From contig CADBYH010000001.1 in assembly GCA_902798815.1 (NCBI GenBank), positions 69,554-133,553 on the forward strand: a stretch of DNA of 64,000 bases, in the 5' to 3' direction. Positions 51,056 through 57,236 of this stretch are shown piece after piece (position 1 is the first letter of the stretch; each line of letters opens with the position of its first letter). The notes beneath the pieces were generated by a model, which ran no database searches, had not been told where the DNA came from, and saw only the letters and a program-made list of their open reading frames with translations. Position numbers and translations under genes: made by a program. The DNA is from an uncultured Erysipelotrichaceae bacterium (GTDB lineage: Bacteria; Bacillota_I; Bacilli_A; RF39; UBA660).

Positions 51056-51122
51056 TAATTCATTCTTTTTTCTTGTAGCAAAAATAAAACTATTATATAA
51101 TCAATTATAGGAGGTAGAGTTG

Positions 51123-52301
51123 ATGAAGAATTTTAATTTAGATAGAATTAATTTAGAGAAAATTAGATTAAATGAACAACCATTAGTTTTAAAAACAAAA
51201 TCATATCAAGAACCAATTATAAGAGATGGATATTTACATGACTATACAGGTCGTAGAGTAGGAACAAAAGGCGATATGTACCAAAAACTAATAGTTGATA
51301 AAATATTACAAGGAGGATGTTTAGATCACAATCCTAGACCACTATATATTGATCATTATCCAAACGCAAAATATGATCATATAAAAGATGTAGTCACAAA
51401 AGAAGATGGAACAAAAGTTAAATTAAGTAAAAATTCAGGAGTAATAGTAAGAGATAACGAAGTAGAAGTAAAAACTCCTGCTCATACAATAAGTCTTAAT
51501 AACGGTATAGAATGTAATTATGATTTATCAAAGGGAGAAAGTCCAATAATTACCCTTAGACCTATCGCAATAAGAGCAAGTATTGCTGAAATATTATGGA
51601 TCTATCAAAAAGAAAGCAATGATTTAGTTGTGTTTGATGAATTATTAAATAGAAATACATGGGATAAAGATGGTAAAATTAATAACTGGTGGAAGGATTG
51701 GGCAATCACAAATACTGATAAGGAATATGTTTTAAATGCAGAAGGACATCCAACAATAGGAACATGTTATGGTGAAACTGTTAGAAGACGTCATATGCTT
51801 AAAGAAGAAGTAATCGAAGCAATTAGGAAAAATCCAGATGGAAGAAGAAATATCTCATGTATGTGGCAACAAGCTGATTTCTTAGAACCACATGGATTAA
51901 AACCATGTGCATTCTTAACAATTTGGAATGTAAGACATGACTGGGATGGAAAAGACTATTTAGATATGACATTAGTACAAAGATCAAGTGACTTCGCAAC
52001 AGCAGGATGTATAAATCAAGTTCAGTATTCTGCATTGTTATTAATGGTCGCAAGAGAATTGGGATTAGAACCAGGAGTATTTACTTGGAAACCAGTAAAT
52101 ATTCAATTATATGATAGACATATTGACCAAGCAATTGAATTATTAAACAGAAACCCCGTAGATTGTGCCGCCGAATTATTACTAGATAAAAAAGTAAAAT
52201 CATTTGAAGAAGTAACACCAGATGATATAAAAATAAAAGGATATCCAAAGGAATTAATTAAAAAAAGAAATCCCCAATTAAAGTTTGAGTTAGGAATATA
52301 A
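51123..52301 (+). CDS. thyA: thymidylate synthase (ThyA family), unusually long and divergent form
   Basis: Core motifs are present: DGRRNISCMW, LKPCAF (catalytic Cys), VQRSSDFATAGCINQVQYSALL, NIQLYDRH. The N-terminal third is expanded and lacks the usual RTGTGT segment. ATG at 51123 lies 8 nt after AGGAGG. Confidence 0.7.
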   Translation: MKNFNLDRINLEKIRLNEQPLVLKTKSYQEPIIRDGYLHDYTGRRVGTKGDMYQKLIVDKILQGGCLDHNPRPLYIDHYPNAKYDHIKDVVTKEDGTKVKLSKNSGVIVRDNEVEVKTPAHTISLNNGIECNYDLSKGESPIITLRPIAIRASIAEILWIYQKESNDLVVFDELLNRNTWDKDGKINNWWKDWAITNTDKEYVLNAEGHPTIGTCYGETVRRRHMLKEEVIEAIRKNPDGRRNISCMWQQADFLEPHGLKPCAFLTIWNVRHDWDGKDYLDMTLVQRSSDFATAGCINQVQYSALLLMVARELGLEPGVFTWKPVNIQLYDRHIDQAIELLNRNPVDCAAELLLDKKVKSFEEVTPDDIKIKGYPKELIKKRNPQLKFELGI

Positions 52302-53769: not shown

Positions 53770-54003
53770 ATGGTATTTGCACACGAGTATAAGGTAAAGC
53801 CTAGCGATGAAAAAGAAAAGAGAAGAAAAAGAAAATGGTACCCACAAGCACCACCAGCACCTGACAGAGTGGTATTTTATAACAAACAATTAAGTCAATC
53901 GTTTGGAAATAGATTTTCGTATGAAAAATTTATCAAAGATCCGCCAAAAAACAATACACCAGAAAAAGAAGGACCGGTATTAATCAAAAAAAGAGATAAT
54001 TAA
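53770..54003 (+). CDS. hypothetical small basic protein
   Basis: Strong SD TAAGGAGG 5 nt upstream. 77 aa. No motif recognised. Confidence 0.5.
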   Translation: MVFAHEYKVKPSDEKEKRRKRKWYPQAPPAPDRVVFYNKQLSQSFGNRFSYEKFIKDPPKNNTPEKEGPVLIKKRDN

Positions 54004-54015
54004 TTATCTCTTTTT
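53992..54015. terminator. bidirectional hairpin between convergent genes
   Basis: AGAGATAA / TTATCTCT hairpin flanked by an A-run and a T-run. Confidence 0.5.
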
Positions 54016-54925
54016 AATATATCATTGTATGAAGAATTCTATCTGTATTTTTAAAGTTAAGTTTACTTACTTTTTTTAATTTACCTTCACCATACTTTTC
54101 AACTATTTCTTCACCAATTTTATCAACATCACTTCCAGCTCCTTTAGGTAAAGGAATATGTAATGAATCACTCAATTTATCAAACTCTTTTAAGAATAAG
54201 TATCTACTTATAATTGATGCACAAGCTACCGCATTATTTTTATCTTCTGCCTTAGTTAAAAAGGTAATATCTTTTTGAATAAAACTTTGATCTCTCAAGT
54301 ATTCATAATATCTTGCTTCTCTAGCAAATTCATCAACAATAATATAATCATATTTAGGTTTTTCTTCGCTAACTAATTGATATAATACTTTATTATGTAA
54401 AATTGCCTTAATCTTATTCATATTAATATCTTTGCTATACTTTTCATTATATTCTTCATTAGTTAAAATAACACTTTTATATTTTATTTTTTTAGCAATT
54501 ATTGGAGCAATCTTAAGAATTTTTTCATCATCAATTTTCTTTGAATCACCAACACCTAATTCTTCTAAATCTTTAATATCATCTTTAGAAACAAAACAAG
54601 CAGTAACAACAATAGGACCATAGTAATCACCAGTACCAACTTCATCAGAACCAACTGCACTGCAATTATAATATTTTAAATCTTGTTTCTTCTTTTCTTC
54701 TTTCTTTTCTTTTGTATTTTCTAACACTGTTCCCCACATAGCAGCATCAACATCAGCACTAGTACCTTGAAACATTACTTTACCAGATTCATACATAGTA
54801 ATTACAGTATCTTCTTCCTCAGCTTGAAAAACAACATAAGGAATTACTTTATCACGTCTTTTATCTTTGTAGTACTCAATCATCTTCTCTTTAACTTCAT
54901 CATTAACTTTAATAACAACATTCAT
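54014..54925 (-). CDS. rnhC: ribonuclease HIII
   Basis: N-terminal TBP-like domain followed by the RNase HII/HIII catalytic motif GSDEVGTGDYYGPIVV. About 300 aa. SD AAAGGAG. Confidence 0.85.
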   Translation of the reverse strand: MNVVIKVNDEVKEKMIEYYKDKRRDKVIPYVVFQAEEEDTVITMYESGKVMFQGTSADVDAAMWGTVLENTKEKKEEKKKQDLKYYNCSAVGSDEVGTGDYYGPIVVTACFVSKDDIKDLEELGVGDSKKIDDEKILKIAPIIAKKIKYKSVILTNEEYNEKYSKDINMNKIKAILHNKVLYQLVSEEKPKYDYIIVDEFAREARYYEYLRDQSFIQKDITFLTKAEDKNNAVACASIISRYLFLKEFDKLSDSLHIPLPKGAGSDVDKIGEEIVEKYGEGKLKKVSKLNFKNTDRILHTMIY

Positions 54926-54938
54926 AATTTCACTCCTT

Positions 54939-55301
54939 TCATATTATATTACTTGAATTATAATAAAATAGTTTATTATCTAATTTATTGAGAATTCTTT
55001 TAATATCTTTACTGCTAATATTAAGAATAAAAGGATTAGAATCAAACAATAAATCTAAATCATTAACATTATTTTTCTTTAAAGTATCAATTAATCTTAA
55101 TACATCATCTATATTATTATTTAAATAAAATGGATTAGTTAATAATATATTTTTAATAATACTTAAATTACAATTATTATCTTTTAATATATTAATTAAT
55201 TCTTCTATATCATTATCTTCAATATTACCTATATCTTGATTGCAATCCATCATACATTTAATCTCTTCAATACTAAAACCATATCTTATCAAAATATCCA
55301 T
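54939..55301 (-). CDS. short mTERF-like repeat protein
   Basis: A 120-aa protein with the same ~30-aa repeat logic as the upstream gene (YGFSIEEIKCMM..., ...NPFYLNNNIDDVLRLIDTL..., ...NPFILNISSKDIKRIL). Confidence 0.5.
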   Translation of the reverse strand: MDILIRYGFSIEEIKCMMDCNQDIGNIEDNDIEELINILKDNNCNLSIIKNILLTNPFYLNNNIDDVLRLIDTLKKNNVNDLDLLFDSNPFILNISSKDIKRILNKLDNKLFYYNSSNII

Positions 55302-55305
55302 ATCA

Positions 55306-56445
55306 TCAATCCTTTATTATTCTAACATTATATTTTTTATAAAAATCACTATCATTCATAAATAAATCATCATATGATTCACTATTAATAATATTAAATC
55401 TTTCTTTAACTAAATCAAAATTAAATAATAAATACTCTGGATTATTAAAAATAATACCTAATATACCCTTACTTTTATAAAAAGATAATTTTTCTTTAAC
55501 AGAAATGTAATTATATCCTAAAAGTAAAGGAGTATCAATAATTATTTGTTTAATCTTTATACTATCAAAACCAAACTTTTTAAAATTATCAAAACAATTA
55601 TTAATATATTCAATAGAATACAATAATATATAAGGATTACTAATAGTGATTTCAACTATATCCTTATTAGTAAAAGACAACTTATTTAAATTGTCAATCT
55701 TTTTAGGTAATTCATTCCAATAATAATCTTTTAAAATAATAGGTATTTTTTTAATAATTCCCACAATATTCTTTTTAGAATATCCATAATCTAATAAGTA
55801 AACAATAATATTATTAATTCTATCATTATCAACAATAAATAAATTAGGAGAATATGTAGTAATTTTAATTACTTCATTTTTAGTAAAACCTAAATTACTA
55901 ATATCATTTAATCTTTTTTCAATATTCTTTAAAGATATATCTAATAGACTAGGGCACATTTCAAATAAATATGATAAATCGCTATAACCATATTCTTTAA
56001 AAAACTTTAGTCTTTTATCAATTAAAGAAATATCTACATTTAATAATTCTGGATAATTAATAAAAATATTATTAATTGCTTTATTAGTAAAACCAAAACT
56101 ATAAAAGAATTTATATTTATTATCAATCTTATTTATAGACATATCAATAATATAAGGATATTTATTAATTAATTCAAATATGTCAATTTTATTAAGACTA
56201 TAATTACTTAATTCAAATACTCTTACTTTAATATTTTCTAAACTTGTACAAATAATATTTGGAATAGTAATTGTAATATTAATAATATCTTCATTACTAA
56301 GTCCGTTTCTAGAAAAGTATGAATTAATACTTTTAAAATTATATAGTATGTCAGAATCAGATCTGTTTTTTAAAAAATATGAAGATTTAATTAATTTAAT
56401 TTGTTCACTGGAATATCCAAACGCTAACATATAATCATCCAACAT
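55306..56445 (-). CDS. mTERF-like helical repeat protein
   Basis: Ten or more ~30-35 aa repeats of the form [FL]G[FY][ST]xxx[IV]xxxIxxxPx[IL]Lxx[SD]xxx[IL]xx[KR]xxF. Examples: FGYSSEQIKLI, NGLSNEDIINITITIPNIICTSLENIKVRV, FGFTNKAINNIFINYPELLNVDISLIDKRLKFF, YGYSDLSYLFEMCPSLLDISLKNIEKRL, LGFTKNEVIKITTYSPNLF, FGFDSIKIKQIIIDTPLLL. Confidence 0.65.
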   Translation of the reverse strand: MLDDYMLAFGYSSEQIKLIKSSYFLKNRSDSDILYNFKSINSYFSRNGLSNEDIINITITIPNIICTSLENIKVRVFELSNYSLNKIDIFELINKYPYIIDMSINKIDNKYKFFYSFGFTNKAINNIFINYPELLNVDISLIDKRLKFFKEYGYSDLSYLFEMCPSLLDISLKNIEKRLNDISNLGFTKNEVIKITTYSPNLFIVDNDRINNIIVYLLDYGYSKKNIVGIIKKIPIILKDYYWNELPKKIDNLNKLSFTNKDIVEITISNPYILLYSIEYINNCFDNFKKFGFDSIKIKQIIIDTPLLLGYNYISVKEKLSFYKSKGILGIIFNNPEYLLFNFDLVKERFNIINSESYDDLFMNDSDFYKKYNVRIIKD

Positions 56446-56528
56446 ACATAAACACCTCGAAATTATTATAGCATAATTTTCATAAATAGTTTATAATGAA
56501 TATATAATATGAATAAGGAAGTGATTAA

Positions 56529-57236
56529 ATGCTTAATATATTTGATGTTGGTATTATTCTATTATTAATATTATTTATTATATTAGGAATAAAAAAAGGC
56601 GTTATTAAAGAATTAGTATCACTTGTAGGTATAATAATAGTATTTATATTATCTTGGAGTTTAAAAGGAATTATAGGTAATTTTTTATGCATAATATTAC
56701 CATTCTTTAAATTTACTGGAATAATTGAAGGGATGAGTTCGTTAAATATTCTCTTATATCAAGCAATTGCCTTTATAATAGTATTTAGTTTATTAATGGG
56801 ATTATATGGATTATCATTAAAATTATCAAGAGTTATTCAAAAAATAGTTAATATGACAATTATTTTATGGTTACCATCTAAACTATTAGGAGGAGTAGTA
56901 TCCTTTATAAAAGGATATTTAGTATTATTTATAGTATTTGTATTTTTAATGATTCCATTAGGAAAATTTTCAGTATTTAATGAAAGTAAAATAATAAATT
57001 ATATGTTATACGAAACACCTGTATTATCAAAATATACTAATTCATTTACAGAACCAATAGTAAATATATTTGATTTAGCAGAAGATGTCTCAAAAAATAA
57101 AACTAGTATTAATGATGCTAATGTAAAAGCAATTGGAATTATTTTAAAATATAATATTTGTGATGAAAAAACTATAAATAAATTAATAGAATTAAATAAA
57201 TTAGATAATATTAATGGTATTGAGAAAATATTATAG
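56529..57236 (+). CDS. cvpA: CvpA family membrane protein
   Basis: N-terminal MLNIFDVGIILLLILFIILGIKKGVIKEL and four TM segments. Neighbouring rnhC matches Bacillus synteny. Confidence 0.7.
   Translation: MLNIFDVGIILLLILFIILGIKKGVIKELVSLVGIIIVFILSWSLKGIIGNFLCIILPFFKFTGIIEGMSSLNILLYQAIAFIIVFSLLMGLYGLSLKLSRVIQKIVNMTIILWLPSKLLGGVVSFIKGYLVLFIVFVFLMIPLGKFSVFNESKIINYMLYETPVLSKYTNSFTEPIVNIFDLAEDVSKNKTSINDANVKAIGIILKYNICDEKTINKLIELNKLDNINGIEKIL

What the first reader, a model, noticed from the sequence alone, without database searches (positions are those of the whole stretch)
54939..56445. Two adjacent bacterial mTERF-like repeat proteins upstream of rnhC
Seen in sequence: the 379-aa protein is built almost entirely of ~30-35 aa repeats following [FL]G[FY][ST]-x3-[IV]-x3-I-x3-P-x-[IL]L-x2-[SD]-x3-[IL]-x2-[KR]-x2-F. 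The next repeat starts ...G[FY].. again. The 120-aa neighbour continues the same repeat type.

Established knowledge: this matches the mTERF motif (Pfam PF02536 / SMART SM00733). That family of nucleic-acid-binding superhelical proteins is known essentially from mitochondria and chloroplasts. Bacterial members are rare and, to my knowledge, functionally unstudied.

The two genes are co-oriented with RNase HIII and separated from it by 13 nt. They are inserted into the otherwise conserved rnhC / cvpA neighbourhood, which hints at a DNA/RNA-related role.
Basis: partly seen in the sequence, partly recalled or inferred. Interest (0 to 1): 0.6.

Follow-up and report, generated by a model that had tools for sequence, protein, structure and literature searches.

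The report
Bacterial mTERF pair upstream of RNase HIII
An uncultured rumen bacterium carries two genuine members of the "mitochondrial" mTERF repeat-protein family, a large one and a small acidic partner; the pair is a cassette found in many gut Firmicutes, and in this one lineage it shares an operon with the RNA:DNA-hybrid nuclease RNase HIII.

Summary
ORFs 55306-56445(-) (379 aa) and 54939-55301(-) (120 aa) both pass Pfam mTERF (153 and 25.4 bits; cut-off 23.1). AlphaFold models are confident (pLDDT 91.5 and 89.4). Their top 17 PDB matches are all mTERF structures, led by DNA-bound human MTERF1 (TM 0.60/0.69).

Two genes, not a frameshift: large + small + rnhC is kept in all 17 species-level loci with all three genes and in 30 more metagenome loci. 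One invariant promoter precedes them, with 4-nt and 13-nt gaps here.

New here:
- The small acidic protein is its own conserved subfamily. It accompanies large mTERFs in other gut Firmicute lineages (45 of 51 loci).
- The rnhC link is confined to the rumen clade. Elsewhere the cassette lies by sigK, ssb, a SpoU rRNA methylase or cmk/alaS.
- The mTERF genes evolve several-fold faster than rnhC (34-54% vs 78-87% identity) but under purifying selection.

"Rare and unstudied" is outdated: DNA-binding prokaryotic "pTERF" proteins were reported in 2024, and an exhaustive search found 4,210 related clusters.

The most likely function is a two-subunit nucleic-acid-binding module. Cooperation with RNase HIII is possible but unproven. 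Verdict: a new variant of a known kind, moderately interesting.

The parts
56446..56528 (.). Divergent promoter region between cvpA and the mTERF operon. On the minus strand it holds an extended -10 (TGCTATAAT, 56473-56465), an RBS (GAGGTG, 56458-56453) and an invariant block CATTATAAACTATTTA (56498-56483). That block contains TATAAT on the plus strand, which is probably the cvpA -10.
   Evidence: Sequence read. The block and the TGCTATAAT element are nearly invariant in all 18 loci although the downstream proteins are only 34-46% identical. The block occurs once in the window, and near-matches are at chance level. Promoter function is inferred, not shown.
55306..56445 (-). Large mTERF protein (379 aa): about ten three-helix mTERF repeats plus a conserved C-terminal cap motif (...R.....LF..D.DFYKKY.).
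   Evidence: PF02536 at 153 bits. AF2 pLDDT 91.5, pTM 0.78. Foldseek top 17 hits are all mTERF, with MTERF1-DNA at TM 0.60/0.69. PDB profile hits: MTERF3 4e-20, MTERF1 about 1e-15 to 1e-14, MTERF4 1.6e-13. dN/dS is 0.17-0.30 for close pairs.
54939..55301 (-). Small acidic mTERF partner (120 aa, pI 4.4): three mTERF repeats plus a C-terminal helix. Signature: MD.LIR.GF ... C ... I.NI..NP ... D.NP..LN. It has a 9-codon in-frame deletion relative to its orthologues (125-129 aa).
   Evidence: PF02536 at 25.4 bits. AF2 pLDDT 89.4. Foldseek top 17 hits are all mTERF, TMq 0.49-0.77. hhalign to the large family: 96%, E 2e-9. Orthologue in an unrelated lineage: 99.4%, E 1.7e-21, 41% identity. Alignment.
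54014..54925 (-). rnhC (RNase HIII, 303 aa), the third gene of the unit. It starts 13 nt after the small gene and has its own AAGGAG RBS.
   Evidence: TIGR00716 at 236 bits (cut-off 161), full length; PF11858 + PF01351. It lies directly downstream of the pair in every rumen-clade locus with room.

Best explanation
The two ORFs encode a two-subunit bacterial mTERF module. The large subunit (about 380 aa, about ten repeats) has the same superhelical fold as human MTERF1. The small subunit (about 125 aa, three repeats, always acidic) is a dedicated, co-evolving partner. The pair is a cassette present in many low-GC gut and rumen Firmicutes.

In this rumen lineage (MAGs labelled Erysipelotrichaceae, Bacilli or Bacillales) the cassette sits between a strongly conserved promoter and rnhC. 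All three genes therefore form one tightly packed, probably translationally coupled, transcription unit.

Most likely mechanism (inferred): the large subunit binds a specific duplex nucleic-acid target along its concave face, as MTERF1 and the bacterial pTERF1/2 do with dsDNA. It would act as a site-specific roadblock, terminator or regulator. The acidic small subunit would cap the superhelix or compete with nucleic acid to modulate binding.

Shown: family membership, fold, two-gene architecture, operon packing and its conservation, purifying selection with fast divergence, and the clade-restricted rnhC link. Inferred: nucleic-acid binding, heteromer formation, co-transcription, and any functional tie to RNase HIII.
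For: Family and fold.

Real gene pair: large+small+rnhC is present in all 17 extracted loci, with junctions of -17 to +4 nt (large to small) and 2-20 nt (small to rnhC).

Purifying selection: dN/dS is 0.17-0.30 (large) and 0.08-0.28 (small) in close pairs.

Small as a separate conserved subfamily paired with large mTERFs in other lineages: L030. In the metagenome scan, 45 of 51 loci with room have an adjacent large mTERF.

Co-variation: r = 0.83 for large vs small; partial r = 0.76 given rnhC (p = 2e-4); small vs rnhC given large = 0.03.

Charge: the small protein is always acidic (pI 4.1-5.0), and the large paralogues in L030 are basic (pI 9.3-9.4).

Biochemical precedent: pTERF1/2 from Bacillota MAGs bind specific dsDNA with nanomolar Kd (PMC11417379). 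The best full-length structural match is DNA-bound MTERF1.

Single conserved promoter upstream and no room for an rnhC promoter.
Against: No binding data exist for this family, and its relation to pTERF1 could not be tested because that sequence was not obtainable.

In this clade the large protein is near-neutral overall (net charge -9 to +17, median 0; pI 5.0-9.3). That is less basic than expected for a protein that wraps nucleic acid.

Of MTERF1's three base-flipping residues only the aromatic F243 has a conserved counterpart. R162 does not, and Y288 is unaligned.

The best sequence matches include MTERF3 and MTERF4, which act on RNA and ribosomes, so DNA versus RNA is open.

The mirror-tree signal can arise simply because two fast-evolving genes track phylogeny better than a slow one.

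RNA evidence for co-transcription is weak.
Confidence: 0.6

Rival explanations
1. RNase HIII targeting complex. The large and small mTERF proteins would be specificity or recruitment subunits. They would bring RNase HIII to particular DNA or hybrid sites, such as transcription ends, R-loop-prone or head-on genes. This is analogous to MTERF4 recruiting the methyltransferase NSUN4 to mitochondrial rRNA.
For: The three genes are packed in one unit (4-nt and 13-nt gaps) behind one conserved promoter. This arrangement is kept in every rumen-clade locus examined: 17 species-level loci and 30 metagenome loci. mTERF proteins are known to act as enzyme adaptors: MTERF4-NSUN4 structures are among the fold hits. 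RNase HIII handles R-loops and primers in Bacillus (established knowledge; papers listed).
Against: The cassette exists without rnhC in all other lineages sampled; 0 loci outside the rumen clade have rnhC after the small gene. RNase HIII here is an ordinary full-length TIGR00716 protein with no extra domain. It is 78-87% conserved while the mTERFs diverge to 34-54%. Small-vs-rnhC co-variation is nil once the large protein is accounted for. A cassette inserted between rnhC and its promoter would be retained for expression reasons alone.
Confidence: 0.2
2. RNA-binding, ribosome-biogenesis-type factor. The module would bind structured RNA (rRNA, tRNA or intron RNA), like MTERF3, MTERF4 and many plant mTERFs, rather than DNA.
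For: The best sequence match in the PDB is MTERF3 (E 4e-20). MTERF4 and the ciliate mitoribosomal protein mS93 also match. In another lineage the small gene's 3' end overlaps a SpoU/MRM3-like rRNA methyltransferase gene, followed by rimM-trmD. Other lineages place the cassette between cmk and alaS.
Against: The only prokaryotic relatives tested bind dsDNA. The full-length structural superposition is best on DNA-bound MTERF1. Other contexts are DNA-related (ssb, rnhC). In small genomes most neighbours are housekeeping genes anyway, so context is a weak guide.
Confidence: 0.25
3. Protein-protein scaffold with no nucleic-acid ligand. The solenoid would serve only as a docking platform, and the operon with rnhC would be an accident of where the cassette inserted.
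For: The large subunit's net charge in this clade is near-neutral to acidic, and L+S sums to a negative charge in 16 of 17 loci. Few basic residues are invariant. The genomic contexts are unrelated to one another.
Against: Every characterised mTERF-family protein binds DNA or RNA (established knowledge). The large paralogues in the sister lineage are strongly basic (pI 9.3-9.4).
Confidence: 0.1
4. A recent frameshift or assembly artefact has split a single, roughly 500-aa mTERF gene.
For: The two ORFs are only 4 nt apart in different frames, and the small one continues the repeat type.
Against: The split is kept in every locus and in an unrelated lineage, with its own start codon and varied junctions from -17 to +4 nt. 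Both parts are under purifying selection. The small protein is a distinct subfamily. The same sequence is seen in many independent bovine and goat metagenome runs.
Confidence: 0.01

Closest known systems
Human MTERF1 (PDB 3MVA, 3N6S), mitochondrial transcription termination factor
   Same: Same Pfam family. Same repeat of about 35 residues with three helices and a conserved Pro. Same superhelical fold over about 340 aligned columns (TM 0.60/0.69). The aromatic residue aligned with F243 is invariant (Y272 in NPYILLYS).
   Different: Encoded in a bacterial chromosome with no targeting peptide. R162 is not conserved and Y288 is unaligned. It has a separate small acidic partner gene. The large protein is near-neutral rather than basic in this clade. 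Sequence identity is only about 18%.
pTERF1/pTERF2, prokaryotic mTERF-like DNA-binding tandem-repeat proteins (Nucleic Acids Res 2024, PMC11417379)
   Same: They come from Bacillota MAGs, with pTERF1 from the same ruminant MAG catalogue. They have tandem units of about 35 residues annotated as mTERF motifs and a three-helix unit. They are the only biochemical precedent, binding specific dsDNA with nanomolar Kd.
   Different: The paper reports that pTERF1 lacks the canonical Pro-8 and hydrophobic heptad features. The protein here keeps them and scores 153 bits on Pfam. The paper describes neither a small partner gene nor an rnhC operon.
MTERF4-NSUN4 complex (PDB 4FP9, 4FZV)
   Same: An mTERF solenoid that works as an adaptor for a nucleic-acid enzyme. 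It is both a fold hit and a sequence hit. It is the conceptual model for a possible mTERF-RNase HIII partnership.
   Different: The partner there is an rRNA methyltransferase and the substrate is rRNA. No interaction with RNase HIII is shown here, and the rnhC link is clade-specific.
MTERF3 (PDB 3M66) and plant mTERFs
   Same: MTERF3 is the best sequence-profile match (E 3.9e-20). Plant mTERF repeats align at 22-26% identity.
   Different: These are nuclear-encoded, organelle-targeted single-chain proteins with no small acidic partner gene.

Membership tests
mTERF (Pfam PF02536 / SMART SM00733) | Match to the family HMM above the curated threshold | tested here: met
   Large: 153 bits, E 1.2e-44. 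Small: 25.4 bits, E 7.9e-6. Cut-off 23.1.
mTERF (Pfam PF02536 / SMART SM00733) | Degenerate repeats of about 30-35 residues with a conserved proline and hydrophobic positions | tested here: met
   Nine Pro anchors, with 7 of 8 spacings at 33-36 residues; shuffle mean 0.0065.
mTERF (Pfam PF02536 / SMART SM00733) | Three-helix repeat units stacked into the mTERF superhelix, with structural similarity to solved mTERFs | tested here: met
   AF2 pLDDT 91.5 and 89.4. The Foldseek top 17 hits for both models are mTERF structures only; TALE and designed toroids are far weaker. Handedness was not measured separately.
mTERF (Pfam PF02536 / SMART SM00733) | Binding of DNA or RNA | not testable with these tools
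   Needs EMSA, SELEX or a complex structure.
MTERF1-type base-flipping terminator | The stacking triad R162 / F243 / Y288 | tested here: not met
   R162 aligns to a variable hydrophobic position (Y198 here). F243 aligns to the invariant Y272. Y288 lies outside the aligned region.
pTERF (prokaryotic mTERF-like, PMC11417379) | Prokaryotic (Bacillota MAG) protein with tandem mTERF-annotated units of about 35 residues | tested here: met
pTERF (prokaryotic mTERF-like, PMC11417379) | Sequence homology to pTERF1 (MBQ3414883.1) or pTERF2 | not tested
   The sequences are not in the held supplement, and accessions cannot be fetched with these tools.
pTERF (prokaryotic mTERF-like, PMC11417379) | Loss of the canonical Pro-8 / hydrophobic heptad motif, as reported for pTERF1 | tested here: not met
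   The canonical Pro and hydrophobic pattern is retained, so this is probably a different, more canonical bacterial branch.
RNase HIII (TIGR00716) | Full-length equivalog match with the N-terminal DUF3378 domain plus the RNase HII-type catalytic domain | tested here: met
   236 bits against a cut-off of 161, covering residues 4-293 of 303; PF11858 + PF01351.

The most novel reading that the evidence does not exclude
The large and small mTERF proteins are dedicated targeting subunits of RNase HIII in this rumen lineage. This would be a bacterial RNase H 'holoenzyme', in which an mTERF solenoid heterodimer recognises specific DNA or RNA:DNA-hybrid sites (for example transcription ends or conflict-prone genes) and directs hybrid removal there. 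A related bold reading is that such bacterial large+small cassettes represent the prokaryotic stock from which organellar mTERFs descend.
Probability: 0.15. Interest if true: 0.8.

Novelty: new variant of a known kind. Interest (0 to 1): 0.55.

Why it matters
Papers as recent as 2026 still state that mTERF proteins are absent from bacteria (PMC12977773). The only published exception, pTERF in 2024, covers atypical tandem-repeat proteins.

Here a canonical, Pfam-positive mTERF occurs as a conserved two-subunit cassette in abundant gut and rumen Firmicutes. In one clade it is hard-wired into the RNase HIII operon.

This gives a tractable bacterial system for three questions:
- What mTERF solenoids recognise.
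- What the unreported acidic partner does (cap, anti-factor or nucleic-acid mimic).
- Whether mTERFs can direct a nuclease, as MTERF4 directs NSUN4.

It also bears on whether the organellar family has a bacterial origin.

Tried and rejected
- **Code or frameshift artefact.** Reading TGA as Trp does not fuse the ORFs. The split is conserved everywhere.
- **Genome-wide search.** I could therefore not count paralogues in the whole genome or map presence and absence across taxa. A local HMM found no further mTERF in the 64-kb window.
- **Outgroups for the insertion claim.** The rnhC homologue search was saturated by the clade itself; the top 120 hits are all 84% identical or more. No outgroup locus was obtained. 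Only the B. subtilis zapA-yshB-polX-mutSB unit could be confirmed from the literature.
- **pTERF1 sequence.** It is not in the held supplements.
- **Viral contigs.** Two scans found no relatives. BFVD gave only a Megaviridae environmental protein.
- **Defence and phage libraries.** PADLOC and PHROGs gave no meaningful hits.
- **Invariant promoter block as a regulon motif.** It is unique in the window.
- **DGR template/variable repeat in the L026 mTERF genes.** None was found.
- **Promoter/terminator scan.** It is uninformative in this AT-rich DNA: 32 sites against 34 expected. The one terminator-like site lies inside the convergent 77-aa ORF.
- **RNA evidence.** There are only short, low-depth metatranscriptome contigs, plus one 580-nt junction-spanning contig in a run of unknown type. 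This is inconclusive.

Full report
**1. Observation**

The ORF map reproduces the finding exactly.
- A 379-aa ORF lies at 55306-56445(-).
- A 120-aa ORF lies at 54939-55301(-).
- RNase HIII (303 aa) lies at 54014-54925(-). It matches TIGR00716 at 236 bits against a cut-off of 161.
- cvpA lies divergently at 56529-57236(+) (PF02674).

The large-to-small junction reads GAT TGA tgat ATG: a 4-nt gap and a different frame. Reading TGA as Trp runs into a TAG, so the split is not a genetic-code artefact. The small-to-rnhC gap is 13 nt and contains AAGGAG.

Upstream of the large gene are an extended -10 (TGCTATAAT) and a GAGGTG ribosome-binding site.

The repeat register is real. Nine Pro-anchored units are present, and 7 of 8 spacings are 33-36 residues. 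In 2000 shuffles the mean was 0.0065 and the maximum 1.

The mTERF genes have 16-19% GC, against 23-28% for rnhC and roughly 25-30% for most of the surrounding region.

**2. Family and fold**

- Pfam PF02536 gives 153 bits (E 1.2e-44) for the large protein and 25.4 bits (cut-off 23.1) for the small one.
- A profile of 23 orthologues hits solved mTERFs by sequence: MTERF3 3.9e-20, MTERF1 about 1e-15 to 1e-14, MTERF4 1.6e-13, and Tetrahymena mS93 6e-13.
- The AlphaFold2 model of the large protein has pLDDT 91.5 and pTM 0.78, with about ten three-helix units. Its 17 best PDB matches are all mTERF structures. DNA-bound MTERF1 leads at TM 0.60/0.69 over about 340 columns. TALE and designed toroids follow only weakly.
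- The small protein has pLDDT 89.4. Its top 17 matches are also all mTERFs, with TMq 0.49-0.77.

These are mTERF-fold proteins.

**3. A conserved operon in one rumen clade**

The window is 100% identical to a contig of MAG RUG12877, labelled 'uncultured Erysipelotrichaceae bacterium'. Relatives are rumen and gut MAGs labelled Erysipelotrichaceae, Bacilli or Bacillales. DNA runs that hold the locus are bovine and goat gut metagenomes.

In every locus examined the order is cvpA, then divergently large (379-403 aa), small (120-129 aa) and rnhC (303 aa).
- Large-to-small junctions range from a 17-nt overlap to a 4-nt gap. Seven loci have 1-nt stop/start overlaps.
- Small-to-rnhC gaps are 2-20 nt.

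The intergenic promoter block CATTATAAACTATTT...TATGCTATAAT is almost invariant in all 18 loci. It is unique in the window. It reads as two back-to-back promoters.

There is no room for an rnhC promoter, so co-transcription is structurally implied. Direct RNA evidence is weak.

**4. Evolutionary behaviour**

Identity to the window's proteins across 16 other loci:

| Protein | Identity |
|---|---|
| rnhC | 78-87% |
| large mTERF | 34-46% |
| small mTERF | 38-54% |

For the closest pairs, dN/dS is 0.17-0.30 (large), 0.08-0.28 (small) and 0.03-0.06 (rnhC). Both mTERF genes are therefore functional but evolve several-fold faster than rnhC.

Pairwise distances of large and small correlate at r = 0.83. 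The partial correlation given rnhC is 0.76 (permutation p = 2e-4). Small vs rnhC given large is 0.03. This fits large+small as the co-evolving unit. The caveat is that two fast genes will track phylogeny better than a slow one.

**5. The small protein is a distinct partner, and the pair is a cassette**

- The small family is homologous to about 3.5 internal repeats of the large one (hhalign 96%, E 2e-9).
- It is always acidic (pI 4.4-5.0).
- The exhaustive profile search found 4,210 cluster representatives at E <= 1e-3 and 230 at E <= 1e-30.
- The longest hits are plant gene models. About 116 of the 141 top hits examined have low-GC bacterial-type composition. Composition is only a proxy.

One abundant human-gut cluster (777 members, contigs up to 730 kb) carries the operon sigK - mTERF307 - mTERF509 - mTERF481 - small130, with no rnhC.
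- Its small protein is orthologous to ours (99.4%, E 1.7e-21, 41% identity, shared LFDSNPYILN). It resembles the large family only weakly.
- There the large paralogues have pI 9.3-9.4 and the small one pI 4.1.

A metagenome scan with a small-protein profile returned 80 loci. Local HMMs gave the following:
- 45 of 51 loci with enough upstream sequence have an adjacent large mTERF. This is a lower bound.
- rnhC follows the small gene in 30 of 54 loci with enough downstream sequence. All 30 are in the rumen-clade group and none in the other lineages.

Elsewhere the cassette lies next to:
- a short SSB paralogue, in four lineages;
- a SpoU/MRM3-like rRNA methylase followed by rimM-trmD;
- cmk and alaS;
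- arrays of up to five large mTERFs.

**6. Mechanism**

The following are shown:
- mTERF membership and fold;
- the two-gene cassette;
- the operon packing and its conservation;
- purifying selection with fast divergence.

The following are inferred:
- The large subunit binds a specific duplex nucleic acid along its concave face. The precedents are DNA-bound MTERF1 as best structural match and pTERF1/2 from Bacillota MAGs, which bind specific dsDNA with nanomolar Kd (PMC11417379).
- The acidic small subunit caps or antagonises that binding.

DNA versus RNA remains open.
- MTERF3 and MTERF4 are the best sequence matches.
- One lineage links the cassette to an rRNA methylase.

Several points argue for caution.
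- The large protein of this clade is near-neutral (net -9 to +17).
- The MTERF1 base-flipping triad is not conserved: R162 has no counterpart, F243 aligns to the invariant Y272, and Y288 is unaligned.

The rnhC link may be functional, on the adaptor model of MTERF4-NSUN4. It may instead reflect insertion of the cassette between rnhC and its promoter. Three things favour the second view:
- The link is restricted to one clade.
- The RNase HIII is ordinary, with no extra domain.
- Small and rnhC do not co-vary once the large protein is accounted for.

I put functional cooperation at about 0.2.

**7. Comparison with what is known, and novelty**

The literature held here has one paper on prokaryotic mTERF-like proteins (pTERF, 2024). 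A 2026 paper still states that mTERFs are absent from bacteria.

The present proteins are more canonical than pTERF1 as that paper describes it: Pro and the hydrophobic heptads are retained. That paper mentions neither the small partner nor an rnhC operon. Homology to pTERF1 itself could not be tested.

Earlier notes of this scan are AI leads, not evidence.
- They describe the same rnhC-linked pair in another genome.
- They describe the acidic mini-partner in other lineages.

My own data reproduce both points independently.

Verdict: a real feature and a new variant of a known kind, of moderate interest.

**8. Limits**

Genome-wide paralogue counts, taxon-wide presence and absence, and outgroup synteny were therefore not done.
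- No complex prediction was possible.
- Taxonomy of the non-rumen lineages is unknown.

Noticed in passing
L026:700-5430 (Logan SRR29305861 contig): A distant mTERF pair (398 + 405 aa) lies directly downstream of MutS_I - bAvd - reverse transcriptase, which is a diversity-generating-retroelement cassette. It is followed by thymidine kinase, a thymidylate-kinase-like gene and a TrbL-like protein, so this looks like a phage or mobile element. No template/variable repeat pair was found within the mTERF genes.
   Followed up: partly
L030:3799-8822 (gut metagenome contig, 191 kb): The operon reads sigK (sporulation sigma K, 298 bits) - mTERF307 - mTERF509 - mTERF481 - small130. The 509- and 481-aa proteins each look like internal duplications of a module of about 240 aa, each with its own C-terminal cap motif. 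The cluster is abundant (777 members).
   Followed up: partly
L029:6001-14026 (467-kb contig, 48% GC): Three tandem mTERF-domain proteins of 812, 672 and 695 aa sit on a contig with sparse table-11 gene calls. Their composition is unlike the low-GC bacterial group. The contig may be eukaryotic, giant-viral or from a different bacterial phylum.
   Followed up: no
window 56483-56498 (and all 18 related loci): The 16-nt block CATTATAAACTATTTA in the cvpA|mTERF intergenic region is invariant across species whose mTERF proteins are only 34-46% identical. It is unique in the window. It may be more than a -10 element, for example an operator.
   Followed up: partly
L083, L090, L102, L103 (metagenome loci): A short SSB paralogue (109-112 aa, PF00436, no long C-terminal tail) sits next to the mTERF cassette in four lineages. 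In L107 and L108 a SpoU/MRM3-like rRNA methyltransferase overlaps the 3' end of the small gene and is followed by rimM-trmD.
   Followed up: partly
window 51120-52301 (+): Thymidylate synthase is unusually long (393 aa; 392-402 aa in all relatives), with about 100 extra residues compared with the usual ThyA of about 264-320 aa. It is followed by DHFR.
   Followed up: no
window 53770-54003 (+): A 77-aa basic ORF convergent with rnhC has no Pfam match, yet it is called as a 76-aa gene at the same position in relatives (L001-L004). The only terminator-like hairpin in the region (53855-53834, minus strand) lies inside it.
   Followed up: no
window 54939-55301 (-): This strain's small mTERF lacks 9 codons near the C-terminus relative to all orthologues (120 vs 125-129 aa). 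The deletion is in frame and the gene is otherwise intact.
   Followed up: yes
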